Shown in pieces: positions 36,001 to 51,000 of a stretch of DNA of 64,000 bases; the first letter of the stretch is position 1, and every line of letters starts with the position of its first letter. The position numbers were made by a program. The stretch is from Escherichia coli (GTDB lineage: Bacteria; Pseudomonadota; Gammaproteobacteria; Enterobacterales; Enterobacteriaceae), in NCBI RefSeq assembly GCF_030013595.1, contig NZ_CP122768.1; one strand, written 5' to 3'.

Positions 36001-39000
36001 GCATTGCCGATCTGGATTCCTGTTGTAAAAACGGGATCGCCTCCCTCAGCCAGTTATATTCCACGCTATGGTTCACTGGTGCTACAAACAGCGTTTCCGG
36101 CAAAGACGTTAAAAAATAACGCGCCGAATGTTGCAGCCGAAGAGTGCCACAGACAATACAGGTCGATTCATTATCGACATGACTCAGGCGATGAGCTGAA
36201 TTTTGTGGTAGCAGGACCACATTTCCCGGGCGTAATGTAAAAATCTCTCCCGTCGGCATTTCCAGCTTCGCCGCTCCTTGCGTTAACGCATGCCAACGAA
36301 TAACCGACAATTCCCCGGCACCATGTGGAAGTTGCCAGTCACTTCCTAACACGCAATTCTTATCGATCGTTCCTTGTGGAGCGTTAAGCATCAACAAACG
36401 GCTAAGAGCATCCATATCAGACTCCTGAGTAGTTTTTTAATTACAAACACCAACAATCTTAGTCAATAATTAATCTAATACCATCAAATAGTTAATCATG
36501 ATTTTTGTTTTGTGATTCTGATTAAGAAAAAGAAAATACCAGACGATAAGACAAAATATCAAGCGTTGTGAAGAAATGTTATGTGCTCTTTTGCGTCTAT
36601 AGTCATGATGTCAAATGAACGCGTTTCGACAGGAAATCATCATGAATAAATATCAGGCAGTGATTATTGGTTTTGGCAAGGCTGGAAAAACATTAGCCGT
36701 CACGCTGGCAAAAGCAGGTTGGCGTGTGGCTCTCATCGAACAATCAAATGCAATGTATGGCGGGACCTGTATTAATATCGGCTGTATCCCAACCAAAACA
36801 TTGGTTCATGACGCACAGCAGCACACAGATTTTGTCCGTGCCATACAGCGTAAAAATGAAGTGGTTAATTTTTTACGTAATAAGAATTTTCATAATCTTG
36901 CGGATATGCCCAATATCGACGTGATCGACGGCCAGGCGGAGTTTATCAATAATCATAGCCTGCGTGTTCATCGGCCTGAGGGAAATCTGGAGATTCATGG
37001 CGAGAAAATTTTTATTAATACCGGTGCACAAACCGTGGTTCCGCCAATTCCTGGAATTACCACCACGCCTGGTGTATATGACAGCACCGGATTACTTAAT
37101 CTAAAAGAATTGCCTGGGCATTTAGGTATTTTGGGCGGCGGATATATTGGCGTTGAGTTCGCCTCTATGTTCGCTAATTTTGGCAGCAAGGTAACCATTT
37201 TAGAAGCAGCTTCGCTGTTTTTGCCTCGGGAAGATCGGGATATTGCTGATAATATCGCGACGATTTTACGCGATCAGGGCGTCGATATTATCCTCAATGC
37301 CCATGTGGAGCGAATCAGTCACCATGAAAATCAAGTGCAAGTGCATAGCGAGCACGCCCAACTGGCGGTGGATGCACTGTTAATAGCTTCCGGTCGTCAA
37401 CCAGCTACCGCTTCGTTACATCCAGAAAATGCCGGTATCGCAGTAAACGAGCGCGGGGCAATTGTCGTTGACAAGCGATTACATACCACCGCAGACAATA
37501 TTTGGGCGATGGGAGATGTTACCGGCGGGCTGCAATTTACTTACATATCACTAGATGATTACCGCATTGTACGTGATGAGTTACTGGGTGAAGGCAAACG
37601 TAGTACTGATGATCGGAAAAATGTGCCTTATTCCGTATTTATGACACCGCCCCTGTCCAGGGTTGGTATGACAGAAGAACAAGCCAGAGAGAGTGGTGCT
37701 GATATTCAGGTGGTGACATTGCCTGTAGCTGCAATTCCGCGCGCCAGAGTGATGAACGATACCCGTGGGGTATTAAAAGCGATTGTTGATAATAAAACCC
37801 AACGTATATTAGGGGCATCACTGCTGTGTGTTGACACGAGAGTATTCAAAACACGCCAATAACCTCTTGATTCAATTGAAGTCGAAAATTTTAAGTCAAA
37901 AATCGTATAGCTTAACGTGTAGCTAAAAATGTTTGCTGCAAAAGTATACAATTTTAACCGTTATGACTCCCTGTTATCCGTTATCAAGCTGGTGGATGAT
38001 CATGGATAACCCGTTATGGGAATCCCCATATCGGCATCAGGCCCATGCCATAACAAAAACCCCATATTCGTGGGTTTTCTGTGTTGTGGCTATTCTGCCG
38101 TTGCCGTGCTGGTGGATATTTCCGGTATGTGGCTCACCATATCGGCATCACGCCCACCAGCGCGACGCATTTTTTTAATTTCGCGGGTGTAAAAATTTGA
38201 CGGGGCGGGCGGTCCTATAAGCAATGGGGGGTAGGGATTTCGATCCCCCCTCCTGAATGCAATTTTCCGTATGTGGCTGTGCGGCAATCATACTCGTCAC
38301 ATGTTTTTGACAATAAAAGGCCCGACCGTGAGACTCACAAACAAAAAAGTTACGGAGAAACAGGGGATCGGGCTCGGTTGCCGCTAAATCTATTCAATTA
38401 AAAGAAGATGTCAATAGGGAAAACGAAAAAAAACAATGCTGATATTGTCATAATTTGAACAAAACCACTATATGTAGTTTTAGTTCATGAGGTTAGTCGC
38501 TACCAGATGCGTCAATAGTTTTTTGCTATTAATAATCCCTCTTTTTCCATCGGGAGCTTTGCACTTGTCACTACCTGGTAACTCCTGGTGGCGTTCCTGT
38601 TGCAGCACAACGGAAACAGGCGCTGAACACCTGTTAATTTTGCTTGCAGGTTGTTTGATTTCGGCAATGCTGCGGATCATCTCCAGCATATCGGCTTCGG
38701 TGATGGTCATGATTTACACCTTAGGAAATCTTAGGGGCTGGTTGACACTTTCCGGCTTAAGACCTTAACAAATCTTAACATCGCAGGTTGACACACTTGA
38801 CACTTTTTCGCGAAAAACCTTATCAAACCTTAGCATTTCTAAGCATGGCAACTTGACACTTTTCGCGATTTTTTCGGCTTTTTGACGTGGTAAATCTGGC
38901 GCAAAGCCAGTAACGGCGGGGTTTACAGCGAGGTTGACACTTTTTCGCGTTCAGAGTGTAAAGTGTCAACCTGGCAAGCTGCTCAACTTGACACTTTTTG

Positions 39001-48000: not shown

Positions 48001-51000
48001 ATTCTGGCCTTTTTTCATCTCGTACCAGTCCGAGGCAACTTTTTCGAACGTGTTGCCCTTTTTCCGGCTCTCTGCTTCACGTTTCCGGCGTTCATGGTCC
48101 TGTGGGTCAGTTCCCTTTGCTATTAGTGACCTGTATTCATTCCGTCGCTCTCTGGCATCAGACAGGGAAACATCATTCAGCGATCCAAGGCTGATAATAG
48201 TCCGTTTTTTATCTGCCGGGCGGTAGTACGTAAAACGCCATATTTTTGATCCGGAGGGCTTCACCAGAAGAAATAATCCTCCGCCATCCTGCAGGGTGTA
48301 TTCCTTTTCCCCTGGTCGTGCGTTTTTGATCTCCGTAATGGTTAGTGGGGTGGTTTTTCGTGCCATGTTTTTTTACCCATCGGTAGCTATATGCCTGGTC
48401 GTAGCTATACGGCTTTAGCTACACGCTGGACCGTATAGCTAAACGTGTAGCTAAAAAATCCGGTTATAACCCTATCTTACCGATTCAATCCGGCGACTGA
48501 AAACAACAAAAAAGCCCGTTAATCAGTAAATTAACGGGCTTTCAATAGGTTACCGATGCTGTCCGATATTCAATTTGGTCGGCACGAGATGATCAATATA
48601 GTGAAAATGGTGATGGATGCCGGGCTGCCTTATAGCATATTACGCGATCAGATATTTACTCATCCGTCGATGAGCGAATCACTCAATGATCTATTTTCAT
48701 TAGTCAAATAAACTCAAAATCAGACGCCAGAACAAATATTCTGGCGTCTCAGAGAAAAGAATCTTATTAATTCCCTGTTACTTTATAACTTCTTAATCAC
48801 TTCATTGATGGTATTTTATATGTTTAAAAAACCTGTTTTATTTGCAACACTATTATCTGGCGTTATGGCATTTTCCACCAATGCAGATGATAAAATAATT
48901 CTGAAACATATCAGCGTCTCGTCAGTATCAGCATCACCGACAGTTCTTGAGGATGCCATTGCTGATATGGCCAGAAAATATAATGCTTCATCCTGGAAAG
49001 TTACATCGATGCGAATTGATAATAATTCAACCGCAACAGCAGTATTGTATAAATAAGGATGTTCACAATGGAAAAATACCTGCACCTGTTAAGTCAGGGA
49101 GATAAAATTGGCCTGACATTGATTCGTCTGAGTATTGCGATTGTTTTTATGTGGATTGGGTTATTAAAGTTTGTCCCTTACGAGGCAGACAGCATTACAC
49201 CATTCGTCGCAAACAGTCCACTAATGTCGTTCTTTTATGAACACCCGGAAGACTATAAACAGTATCTGACTCACGAAGGCGAATACAAACCAGAAGCAAG
49301 GGCATGGCAAACGGCCAATAATACCTATGGTTTTTCCAACGGTCTTGGCGTCGTGGAGGTGATTATTGCTCTGCTGGTTTTGGCTAATCCTGTCAATCGC
49401 TGGTTAGGTTTATTGGGAGGGCTGATGGCATTTACCACACCGTTGGTAACACTCTCATTTTTAATCACCACCCCGGAGGCATGGGTACCCGCATTGGGTG
49501 ACGCTCATCATGGTTTCCCTTATTTATCCGGTGCTGGTCGCCTGGTATTGAAAGATACTCTGATGCTGGCAGGTGCTGTCATGATAATGGCAGATTCGGC
49601 GCGGGACATTCTTAAACAACGCAGTAATGAATCCAGTTCAACGTTAAAAACTGAATATTGATAATCCGAACACTGTCTGTTGTTCACTTTTTCAGGCGTC
49701 AGGCCCCCTTTCTGATGATGAAGCCTGACGCCATATTACCGGAGATATGACAGAGTGAAGATCAATATCACTCCCCTGTTAAAAGATTCTTGTCGTCTCA
49801 GGTAAAATACATGATTAATATCAATCATGTATTTTTACAGCAAGACAACCACGAACAAACTCAGGATTAAAATGTTTTACCGATTCCCCAACATAACCCA
49901 AATCAAGCGAACTAATTTGCGCCATTTCTTTCTCTGTCAGTGAGAAATCCCAAATAGCAAAATTTTCTTCGATACGCTGTTGATGTGTCGATTTCGGAAT
50001 AACGACCACTCCCCGTTGAATATTCCAACGCAGAATGACTTGAGAAATCGATTTTTGATGGGCATCTGCAATACTCTGAAGCAGATTATTTTCAAAGGGT
50101 TTATGTCGTCCACCACCTAACGGAGCCCATGCTTCAGGCTGCACGATATAATACTTCATGGTTGCCAGCGCCTCTGGTTGGGCAAAATAGGGATGCAACT
50201 CGACCTGGTTGACCATCGGTTTAACTCTTACCGTTTCACAAAAGTTCGCCAGAACATGAGGATAGAAATTGGAAACCCCAATCGCTTTTAATTTGCCCTC
50301 TTCATAGGCATCTTCGAGTGCACGCCACGCACTGAAATAATCGCGCATAGCCTGGTGCAATAAATAGAGGTCGAAGTATTCTAGTCCCGATTTTTTTAAT
50401 GACGCTTCAATACCTGCTTTTGCCGTATCCTGATTCAACATATCCTGCACCCACAATTTAGACGTTATAAATAACTCTTCTCGGGTACATAAACCTTCAG
50501 ATATGGCTTCACGAACGGCTTCACCGACGGCATCTTCATTACCGTATACCGCTGCAGTGTCGATGAGTCGATAACCCGTGCGGATAGCATTCAGCACTGA
50601 CTGTTTGCACACGTCTTTATCGGTAACCTGAAAAACACCAAATCCCATCATCGGCATTTTCAGATTGTTACTTAATACGGAAAATTCCACTGTCAGTCCC
50701 TCCATTAGGCATGAACAATGAGTCTACGTTAAAACGTAACCTCAAATTAGTATGTGGATTTTGATATCACTTATGCAAAAAATTCATTAATAATGTAGGA
50801 CTGAAACCTCTCTATTTTTGGGGCAATGAAGCAGACGCTATCAGTGCTTTTGCCTTGGGCCTTGCTGTTTTTGATACACTTAGGGCCCAGGGCATAACGA
50901 AAATGTGCGATATGACAAAGAATTAATGGAGAATGTGATGATCAGGCAGAAGATTCTACAGCAGCTCCTGGAGTGGATTGAGTGCAATCTCGAGCACCCT

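What the first reader, a model, noticed from the sequence alone, without database searches (positions are those of the whole stretch)
37904..48460. Near-identical 27-bp direct repeats close to both ends of the element, plus a cluster of GTAGCTA arm-type motifs next to int
CGTATAGCTTAACGTGTAGCTAAAAAT (37904-37930) and CGTATAGCTAAACGTGTAGCTAAAAAAT (48433-48460) are in direct orientation about 10.5 kb apart and differ at one position. Beside the right copy, three more GTAGCTA-containing motifs (about 48384, 48402, 48416) lie between the repeat and the integrase start. This looks like attL/attR core plus integrase or AlpA arm sites, but the repeats sit 60-120 bp inside the rclA break points, which suggests a composite or two-step history.
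Basis: seen in the sequence. Interest (0 to 1): 0.55.

Follow-up and report, generated by a model that had tools for sequence, protein, structure and literature searches.

The report
Integrase arm sites of a satellite
The two near-identical 27-base repeats are most likely binding sites for the element's own integrase, placed at fixed distances on either side of the true crossover point as in phage P4; they are not the crossover site, so the feature is real but ordinary.

Summary
The repeats are real: 37904-37930 and 48432-48459, the right copy one base left of the reported position. Each is two tandem 12-nt units of CGTRTAGCTWA. Three more units lie inverted just upstream of the int start codon.

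They are not the attL/attR core. The 10.75-kb element (37835-48589) is a PICI-type phage satellite. In at least 447 of 5426 complete E. coli genomes its integration module (int plus adjacent arm; 412/413-identical integrase in the loci read) sits at tRNA-Pro (proL), and in only 5 in rclA. The element carries the tRNA 3' end (TTTGGTCGGCACGAGA). rclA shares only CACGAGA with it, and the crossover lies there.

The repeats travel with the element to either site. They centre 77 and 143 nt from the core, against 75 and 134 nt for the arm repeats annotated in the P4 record. Their sequence changes with the integrase across relatives while the layout stays the same.

No composite or two-step history is needed. 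rclA is an off-target site. A 4-nt deletion at the int-distal junction matches the "damage" already described for PICIs.

Verdict: a new member of a known kind, of low to moderate interest.

The parts
36642..37834 (+). rclA 5' fragment, interrupted at codon ~400 of 441
   Evidence: The ORF 36615-37862 matches RclA up to ...LLCVD. Intact K-12 rclA reads GTTGACTCC|CACGAGA|TGATCAAT at nt 1198 of 1326. The host side here lacks 4 nt (CTCC) next to CACGAGA.
37835..37841 (+). CACGAGA at the int-distal junction: the only block shared by rclA and the element's core, and so the inferred strand-exchange (overlap) region
   Evidence: Junction comparison of the window, five rclA-occupied genomes and intact rclA. 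Megablast hits to proL-borne elements start at query 436 = window 37835.
37904..37926 (+). int-distal doubled arm motif: units CGTATAGCTTA (37904-37914) and CGTGTAGCTAA (37916-37926). Its centre is 77 nt from the core centre. It is the left 27-nt repeat of the finding.
   Evidence: It is present at the same distance in the proL-borne copy L001 and in all rclA copies. The P4 counterpart is at 4151-4174.
46420..46626 (-). alpA (68 aa, Phage_AlpA PF05930), the regulator or excisionase-family protein of the satellite
   Evidence: Pfam 5.5e-8. PHROG 'excisionase and transcriptional regulator'.
47125..48366 (-). int, a P4-family tyrosine integrase (413 aa). It has an N-terminal arm-DNA-binding domain (residues 8-94), a central domain and a catalytic domain.
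   Evidence: Pfam PF13356 1.4e-23, PF22022 5.8e-24, PF00589 2e-26. 33% identical to P4 Int. 412/413 identical to WP_000101918.1, which is found at both proL and rclA.
48383..48425 (-). Three inverted arm units immediately upstream of the int ATG: 48383-48393 CATATAGCTAC, 48401-48411 CGTATAGCTAC and 48415-48425 CGTGTAGCTAA. They are inferred to overlap the int promoter.
   Evidence: Relatives have one to three inverted copies in the same place, and P4 has one overlapping its ATG.
48432..48454 (+). int-proximal doubled arm motif: units CGTATAGCTAA (48432-48442) and CGTGTAGCTAA (48444-48454). Its centre is 143 nt from the core centre. It is the right repeat of the finding.
   Evidence: The P4 counterpart is at 3942-3965.
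48510..48543 (-). Terminator-like hairpin plus T-run on the minus strand, placed to terminate the tRNA-Pro gene that the element rebuilds at its primary site
   Evidence: A hairpin preceded by an A-run lies at the same place in the relatives, less clearly in P4.
48574..48589 (+). Element-borne core TTTGGTCGGCACGAGA, the reverse complement of the 3' end of tRNA-Pro (proL). The last 7 nt (48583-48589, CACGAGA) are shared with rclA.
   Evidence: The empty proL attB reads gggaTTTTTGGTCGGCACGAGAGgatttgaacc. The occupied proL junction is, and the window junction.
48590..48711 (+). rclA 3' fragment (codons for MINIVKMV... to the stop)

Best explanation
The window holds a 10.75-kb PICI-type phage satellite (37835-48589) with a P4-family heterobivalent tyrosine integrase. 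Its attachment site has a core that copies the 3' end of tRNA-Pro (proL), flanked by arm-type sites made of an 11-nt unit, CGTRTAGCTWA. There is one doubled (tandem, 12-nt period) copy on each side of the core, centred 77 and 143 nt from it, plus three inverted copies next to the int start.

The two 27-nt repeats of the finding are these two doubled copies. After integration they end up one near each end of the element.

Inferred mechanism: the N-terminal arm-binding domain of Int binds the units while the catalytic domains act on the core. This bridges arms and core into the recombination complex. The inverted copies next to int let Int repress its own promoter, as reported for P4 and KplE1.

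Shown here: strand exchange is at the core, not at the repeats. The element is in rclA because rclA happens to contain the 7-nt CACGAGA, so rclA is an off-target (secondary) site. The 4 nt missing on the host side of the int-distal junction are an instance of the variable 'damage' that PICIs leave at that junction.
For: 1. The same integration module (412/413-identical integrase plus adjacent arm) is at proL in 447 of 5426 complete E. coli genomes and in rclA in 5. The 27-nt repeats are at identical distances from the junction in both contexts, so they are element DNA and not host/element identity.

2. Intact rclA and empty proL lack the repeats. They share with the element only CACGAGA and TTTGGTCGGCACGAGAG respectively.

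3. Int carries an Arm-DNA-bind_3 domain.

4. The P4 GenBank record annotates five 12-nt 'attP arm sequence repeats' around the core: one inverted at the int ATG, a tandem pair 112 nt before the core and a tandem pair 53 nt after it. This is the layout seen here.

5. The layout is kept while the unit sequence changes with the integrase. The units are TAACTA (83% Int), GTACC (about 57%, ssrA islands), GTACCACTAA (47%), GCCCCCA (42% and P4), ATACCCCCA (38%), ATACCATCA (39%) and ATGTACT (36%).

6. A tandem-array junction (L044) reads P arm - full core - P' arm, so exchange is at the core.

7. PMC10111431 (read) describes a 'doubled motif' at 81 and 132 bp from the attP centre in related PICIs. It proposes binding by the Int arm domains.

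8. PMC7286903 reports that P4 Int represses its own promoter. PMC2951348 reports that KplE1 IntS arm sites overlap PintS.
Against: No binding or recombination experiment exists for this integrase and this motif, so the assignment to Int rather than AlpA rests on homology of layout.

Int and AlpA co-vary in the close relatives, so they cannot be separated there.

No sigma-70-like promoter was predicted in 48300-48620, so overlap of the inverted units with the int promoter is inferred.

One genome (L006) has a TAGCTA-type int-proximal arm with a TAAC-type int-distal arm. Either the units are interchangeable or arms are reshuffled after integration.
Confidence: 0.85

Rival explanations
1. The repeated units are binding sites for AlpA, the Xis/Vis-family protein, acting as a recombination directionality factor or regulator, rather than for Int.
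For: alpA (PF05930) is encoded two genes from int. PMC10111431 leaves AlpA open as a binder of its doubled motif. AlpA co-varies with the motif between the window and TW08637, at 76% identity.
Against: The units lie on both sides of the core and in both orientations, as arm-type Int sites do. Directionality factors typically bind phased direct repeats on one arm (established knowledge; PMC7498355 abstract).

AlpA activates its own promoter and not Pint in EcCICFT073 (PMC6092414). Yet the alpA upstream region (46627-46795) has no unit even at 2 mismatches, and instead has a different palindrome.

A separate family-conserved set of CCGG/TCGG blocks between the doubled motif and the core is available as a site for such a factor.
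Confidence: 0.12
2. One reading: the 27-nt repeats are the attL/attR crossover core of an inner element, and the rclA break points reflect a second, outer event (composite or two-step history).
For: The repeats are direct, nearly identical and near both ends.
Against: The DNA between the repeats and the rclA breaks is element DNA that moves with int to proL. It includes the tRNA-Pro 3' end and a terminator, which only make sense as part of attP.

Neither the 26-nt repeat itself (one pair only) nor its 11-nt unit at up to 1 mismatch recurs in the window outside the two arms. The intact rclA and empty proL stretches read around the insertion points also lack them.

The tandem junction in L044 has the core between the two arms. 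P4 has the same spacing.
Confidence: 0.02
3. The repeats are a chance or selfish short repeat (for example transposon ends or REP-like sequences) with no role in recombination.
For: The longest exact run (16 nt) is matched by the best shuffle. At 2 mismatches, the count of units across the window is at chance level.
Against: The 26/27 match is expected about 1e-6 times. Seven units cluster in the two arms. The layout is conserved down to 33-36% integrase identity, with concerted change of all copies.
Confidence: 0.01

Closest known systems
Satellite phage P4 attP (arm sequence repeats annotated in NC_001609; Pierson and Kahn 1987, as cited in PMC7286903)
   Same: - The integrase family is the same (33% identity, same three domains).
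- The core is the 3' end of a tRNA gene.
- The units have a 12-nt period.
- There is an inverted copy at the int start.
- One tandem pair is centred about 134-143 nt from the core centre on the int side, and another about 75-77 nt on the far side.
   Different: - The unit sequence is CGTRTAGCTWA, against ATGCCCCCAAT in P4.
- There are three inverted copies rather than one.
- The target is tRNA-Pro (proL) rather than tRNA-Leu.
- The element is a PICI-type satellite, not P4-like in gene content.
'Doubled motif' of helper-embedded PICIs (PMC10111431)
   Same: A tandem doubled motif is present in two co-oriented copies at fixed distances from the attP centre: 81 and 132 bp there, 77 and 143 nt here. 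The elements are PICIs with int and alpA. That paper also describes off-target integrations, and variable deletions ('damage') at the int-distal fragment of tRNA-Pro and other tRNA genes.
   Different: The motif there is tgTGTATTGCa, and the authors report it as unique to HE-PICIs. Here an analogous doubled motif with a different sequence is seen in proL PICIs, ssrA islands and P4. The off-target site here is a chromosomal gene (rclA), with damage at a non-tRNA sequence.
KplE1 (CPS-53) attL/PintS with IntS arm-type P' sites and TorI sites (PMC2951348)
   Same: The int gene abuts its att junction, arm-type sites lie between the core and the int start, and the int promoter overlaps them, giving negative autoregulation.
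   Different: The integrase lineage, target (argW), unit sequence and number differ. Autoregulation is not tested here, and no promoter was predicted.
Lambda secondary attachment sites (Rutkai et al. 2006, as cited in PMC10111431; established knowledge)
   Same: Integration occurs at a rare site that shares little beyond the overlap region with attP. It is used at low frequency, plausibly when the primary site is occupied.
   Different: This is a different integrase family. The secondary site is recurrent (at least 6 instances, with two integrase alleles), and it inactivates a reactive-chlorine resistance operon.

Membership tests
P4-type attP with integrase arm-type sites | Heterobivalent tyrosine integrase with an N-terminal arm-DNA-binding domain plus a catalytic domain | tested here: met
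   PF13356 at residues 8-94 (1.4e-23), PF22022 and PF00589. 33% identical to P4 Int.
P4-type attP with integrase arm-type sites | Short repeated units on both sides of the core, unrelated in sequence to the core, at P4-like positions | tested here: met
   Units at 37904-37926 and 48383-48454. Distances from the core centre are 77 and 143 nt, against 75 and 134 nt in P4.
P4-type attP with integrase arm-type sites | Units belong to the element and accompany it to any integration site | tested here: met
   The arms are identical or near-identical at the proL and rclA junctions read (L001 at proL; window and L002, L004-L006 at rclA; L006's int-distal arm is of the TAAC type).
P4-type attP with integrase arm-type sites | Unit sequence changes with the integrase while the layout is kept | tested here: met
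   Eight different unit sequences across relatives with 83% to 33% Int identity.
P4-type attP with integrase arm-type sites | Int physically binds the units and needs them for recombination | not testable with these tools
   Needs gel-shift or footprinting, and att-site mutagenesis.
   The boundaries are at CACGAGA (37835-41 and 48583-89). The intact rclA and empty proL stretches read around the insertion points lack the repeat.
Recombination directionality factor (AlpA/Xis/Vis) binding sites | Phased direct repeats on one arm; the same motif at other promoters the protein controls | tested here: inconclusive
   The units are on both arms and in both orientations, with none upstream of alpA. 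Int and AlpA co-vary in close relatives, so they cannot be separated.
Gram-negative PICI (phage-inducible chromosomal island) | About 10 kb; int, alpA and a primase/helicase replication module; a few capsid or packaging-related genes; genes mostly co-oriented | tested here: met
   Present: int, alpA, a RepA-family helicase (phrog_2850 and primase/helicase PHROGs), a DUF2213 protein resembling a head-maturation protease, and a protein resembling the terminase small subunit.
Gram-negative PICI (phage-inducible chromosomal island) | Induction and packaging by a helper phage | not testable with these tools
   Experimental.
Secondary (off-target) attachment site | Identity with attP limited to about the overlap region; rare relative to the primary site | tested here: met
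   7 nt shared, against 17 nt at proL. 5 genomes against 447. Three of the 5 also have proL occupied.
PICI-associated 'damage' of the int-distal att fragment (Williams 2002; PMC10111431) | Deletions of variable length that all start at one fixed position beside the crossover | tested here: met
   rclA junctions: 0, 0, -1, -3, -3 and -4 nt (the window is -4). proL junctions: 0 (3 genomes), -1 (2), -2 (3) and -4 (5) in 13 complete genomes, and about -2, -6 and -10 in IMG/VR contigs. All end at |CACGAGAG.

The most novel reading that the evidence does not exclude
The junction 'damage' seen at tRNA fragments also occurs at rclA, a protein-coding off-target site that shares only 7 nt with attP, and it has the same fixed end point at |CACGAGA.

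This would mean the deletions are produced by the integrase reaction itself, for example by trimming of the 3'-phosphotyrosyl side at the first cleavage site. They would not arise from tRNA-specific selection. It would also map the cleavage position of this integrase family from sequence data alone.

In addition, the doubled arm motif reported as unique to helper-embedded PICIs would be a general, co-evolving feature of the whole P4/PICI integrase clade.
Probability: 0.5. Interest if true: 0.4.

Novelty: new member of a known kind. Interest (0 to 1): 0.28.

Why it matters
It fixes the annotation of this island. The true ends are at CACGAGA, and the 27-nt repeats are internal recombination-complex sites, so no composite history need be invoked.

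It identifies rclA as a recurrent off-target site for proL-targeting satellites. The insertion truncates RclA and separates rclB and rclC from the rclA promoter. This should abolish the reactive-chlorine (hypochlorite) defence operon. Because of the 4-nt junction deletion, excision would not restore rclA.

More generally, the table of co-varying arm units gives ready-made specificity pairs (integrase N-terminal domain and unit sequence). These could be used to study or re-engineer arm recognition in P4-family integrases.

Tried and rejected
- **Pattern scan of IMG/VR for further rclA::satellite junctions:** no hits.
- **Promoter scan of 48300-48620:** no sigma-70-like site, so int promoter overlap stays inferred.
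- **Shuffle test on exact repeat length:** not significant on its own (16 nt against a shuffle maximum of 16). Significance comes from the 26/27 match and the clustering.
- **Unit search at 2 mismatches:** the window-wide count is at chance level (34 against 37.8). Only the clustering at the arms is meaningful.
- **Separating Int from AlpA by co-variation in close relatives:** not possible, because both change together.
- **L044 as an excised circle:** rejected. The contig starts with a second int, so it is a tandem array, and its P-core-P' junction is a tandem junction.
- **Junction deletions as possibly new:** rejected. They are described in PMC10111431, citing Williams 2002.
- **Literature searches for rclA or ykgC as an integration site:** nothing found.
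- **Most IMG/VR loci:** these start exactly at the int ATG and so lack the int-proximal arm. Only about 20 were usable.
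Full report
**Naming.** Window coordinates are used throughout. The integrase gene reads leftwards, so the "int-proximal junction" is the right end of the element (about 48.4-48.6 kb). This is attL in the usual convention with int at the left. The "int-distal junction" is the left end (about 37.8-37.9 kb), attR in that convention.

**1. Observation**

- The left copy, CGTATAGCTTAACGTGTAGCTAAAAAT, is at 37904-37930.
- The right copy, CGTATAGCTAAACGTGTAGCTAAAAAAT, is at 48432-48459, one base left of the reported position.
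- The repeat finder reports the pair as 26 nt, 96% identical and 10528 nt apart (D15). Such a pair is expected about 1e-6 times by chance in this region. The 16-nt exact run alone is not exceptional.
- Each copy is two tandem units of an 11-nt motif, CGTRTAGCTWA, with a 12-nt period. The units are at 37904, 37916, 48432 and 48444, all on the + strand.
- The three further GTAGCTA motifs are real. They are copies of the same unit on the opposite strand: 48415-48425 (0 mismatches), 48401-48411 (1 mismatch) and 48383-48393 (2 mismatches). The last ends 17 nt from the int ATG at 48366.
- Five TAGCTA hexamers lie within 65 nt, out of 12 in the whole 64-kb window.

**2. What the element is**

The region between the rclA fragments encodes the following:

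| Coordinates (strand) | Product |
|---|---|
| 47125-48366 (-) | 413-aa tyrosine integrase with Arm-DNA-bind_3 (PF13356, residues 8-94), Phage_int_M and Phage_integrase domains |
| 46420-46626 (-) | AlpA-family protein |
| 42712-44127 (-) | RepA-family helicase/primase-like protein |
| 41703-42245 (-) | ProQ/FinO-like protein |
| 39702-40355 (-) | DUF2213 protein resembling a head-maturation protease |
| 39004-39531 (-) | Protein resembling the terminase small subunit |

An Icd-like protein is also present. This is the gene set of a Gram-negative PICI-type phage satellite as defined in PMC6092414.

**3. Where the crossover is**

- The same integration module (int plus adjacent arm) lies next to tRNA-Pro (proL, beside yejM) in 447 of 5426 complete E. 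coli genomes. It lies in rclA in only 5. The integrase in the loci read, WP_000101918.1, is 412/413 identical to the window's.
- The empty proL site reads gggaTTTTTGGTCGGCACGAGAGgatttgaacc. The element carries TTTGGTCGGCACGAGA at 48574-48589, which is the 3' end of that tRNA. It is followed on the tRNA strand by a terminator hairpin at 48510-48543. At proL, the element therefore rebuilds the tRNA gene.
- Intact rclA reads GTTGACTCC-CACGAGA-TGATCAAT. The only sequence it shares with the element's core is CACGAGA, present at both junctions (37835-37841 and 48583-48589).
- Seven nucleotides is the size of a tyrosine-recombinase overlap region (established knowledge; "at least 7 bp" in PMC10111431). 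Strand exchange is therefore at CACGAGA.
- The 27-nt repeats start 62 nt inside the int-distal junction and end 114 nt inside the int-proximal one. They keep exactly those positions when the element is at proL.
- A tandem-array junction in a relative (L044) reads int-proximal arm, full core, int-distal arm.
- The repeats are thus internal parts of attP, not the core.

**4. What the repeats are**

The GenBank record of satellite phage P4, whose Int is 33% identical, annotates 12-nt "attP arm sequence repeats":

- one inverted copy over the int ATG (3915-3926);
- a tandem pair at 3942-3965;
- the core at 4078-4097;
- a second tandem pair at 4151-4174.

Distances from each pair's centre to the core centre compare as follows:

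| Element | Far (int-distal) side | int side | Source |
|---|---|---|---|
| P4 | 75 nt | 134 nt | |
| This window | 77 nt | 143 nt | |
| Helper-embedded PICIs ("doubled motif") | 81 ± 2 bp | 132 ± 2 bp | PMC10111431, |

For the helper-embedded PICIs the assignment of the two distances to sides follows their match to the other rows; the paper gives them as upstream and downstream of the attP centre.

The start-to-start spacing of the two pairs is about 220 nt here, 209 nt in P4 and 210 nt in L083.

Across relatives fetched from IMG/VR and from E. coli genomes, the layout is constant: one to three inverted copies at the int start, a tandem pair, about 115 nt containing a hairpin, a tRNA or tmRNA 3' end, then a tandem pair. 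The unit sequence changes with the integrase:

| Int identity to window | Unit | Context |
|---|---|---|
| 100% | CGTRTAGCTAA | window |
| 83% | CGTATAACTAA (all six copies changed together) | proL and rclA |
| about 57% | CGTGTACC(T/A)A | ssrA islands |
| 47% | TGTACCACTAA | L076 |
| 42% | GCCCCCA | L080 |
| 39% | AATACCATCA | L082 |
| 38% | ATACCCCCA | L081 |
| 36% | ATGTACT | L083, L084 |
| 33% | GCCCCCA | P4 |

Concerted change of all copies under a fixed geometry is what binding sites for a co-evolving protein look like.

**5. Which protein binds the units**

Int is favoured for four reasons:

- It has the arm-binding domain.
- The units lie on both arms and in both orientations.
- The layout matches the arm repeats annotated in the P4 record.
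- AlpA, which activates its own promoter but not Pint in EcCICFT073 (PMC6092414), has no such unit upstream of its gene. A different 21+21-nt palindrome lies there (46691-46732).

AlpA cannot be excluded. It co-varies with Int in the close relatives, and PMC10111431 also leaves it open.

By analogy with P4 (Int represses Pint; PMC7286903) and KplE1 (arm sites overlap PintS; PMC2951348), the three inverted units next to int probably mediate autoregulation. No promoter was predicted there, so this step is inferred.

**6. The "composite or two-step history"**

This is not needed. What did happen is an off-target integration.

- rclA instances are about 1% as frequent as proL instances.
- They involve two integrase alleles (100% and 83% identity) and several different satellites.
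- Three of the five rclA-occupied genomes (U90, ETEC6335, Z1323CEC0010) also carry a related satellite at proL. Only about 8% of all genomes have proL occupied by this type. This fits use of a secondary site when the primary one is taken, as discussed for lambda and for PICIs in PMC10111431.
- proL occupancy in the other two genomes, and in the window's own genome, was not determined.

**7. Junction deletions**

The host side of the int-distal junction is shortened by different amounts, and the deletions always end exactly at |CACGAGAG.

- rclA sites: 0, 0, -1, -3, -3 and -4 nt. The window is -4, reading GTTGA|CACGAGAG.
- proL sites, 13 complete genomes: 0 (3 genomes), -1 (2), -2 (3) and -4 (5).
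- proL sites, IMG/VR contigs: about -2, -6 and -10. Those were found with a pattern that fixes the right end by construction.
- The int-proximal junction is intact in all seven loci where it was read.

This is the "damage" to the int-distal tRNA fragment described by Williams 2002. PMC10111431 reports it as PICI-specific and includes tRNA-Pro.

The small addition here is that the damage also occurs at a non-tRNA off-target site. A practical consequence is that excision of this copy would leave rclA with a 4-nt frameshift scar.

**8. Comparison and novelty**

The feature works like, and by the tested criteria belongs to, the P4-type attP architecture. The element is a PICI-type satellite. Arm repeats, doubled motifs, off-target sites and junction damage are all described.

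What is not in the literature I could search is:

- this particular unit sequence;
- rclA as a recurrent secondary site;
- the family-wide table of co-varying units, given that PMC10111431 reports its motif as unique to helper-embedded PICIs.

I rate the finding as a new member of a known kind, with low to moderate interest.

Noticed in passing
window 37830-37842; L001-L006, L091-L102: The host side of the int-distal junction carries deletions of 0 to about 10 nt that always end at |CACGAGAG, at both proL and rclA. The window has -4. This is the known PICI 'damage' phenomenon, seen here at a non-tRNA site as well.
   Followed up: yes
window 42382-42714: CCTCACTTTT iteron-like direct and inverted repeats lie just downstream of the RepA-family helicase gene. 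This is probably the satellite's replication origin (D5, D16, I1, I3, I10).
   Followed up: no
window 38742-39003: Several TTGACACTT(TTTCGCG) repeats lie beside the ORF resembling the terminase small subunit. They may be packaging or regulatory repeats (D1, D2, D8, D14).
   Followed up: no
window 46691-46732: A 21+21-nt palindrome (AAAAACAGTACCCACCGTTTT / AAAACGGTACCCACTGTTTTT) lies between alpA and the upstream 76-aa ORF. It is a candidate alpA operator and is unrelated to the TAGCTA unit (I22).
   Followed up: partly
window 48458-48495 and 48552-48568: A second set of short CCGG/TCGG-containing blocks lies between the doubled motif and the core. The blocks are conserved in position across relatives as far as P4. 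They are candidate sites for AlpA/Vis or a host bending protein.
   Followed up: partly
window 48510-48543 (minus strand): A terminator hairpin lies inside the int-proximal arm, placed to terminate the tRNA-Pro gene that the element rebuilds at its primary site. An equivalent hairpin lies at the same place in the relatives, less clearly in P4.
   Followed up: partly
L006 (E. coli MFDS1022581) 1896-2020 and 14000-14260: This copy has hybrid arms. The int-proximal arm has TAGCTA units, but the int-distal arm has TAAC(C/T)A units like the 83% integrase lineage. Either the units are tolerated across types or recombination between satellites occurred.
   Followed up: partly
L044 (IMG/VR contig, 8050 nt): This is a tandem array of two related satellites, with int at 1 and at 4306. 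The internal junction reads arm - full core - arm.
   Followed up: partly
E. coli U90, ETEC6335, Z1323CEC0010 (L001, L002, L004, L005, L096, L102): Three of the five genomes with a satellite in rclA also have a related satellite at proL. This is consistent with secondary-site use when the primary site is occupied.
   Followed up: partly
window 38011-38045 and 38122-38156: A 35-nt direct repeat (83% identical) containing CCATATCGGCATCA lies near the int-distal end of the element. Its role is unknown (D13).
   Followed up: no
window 36642-37834 and 48590-49700: The insertion truncates RclA. It also separates rclB and rclC from the rclA promoter by 10.7 kb of oppositely oriented genes, so the reactive-chlorine resistance operon is probably inactive in this strain.
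   Followed up: no
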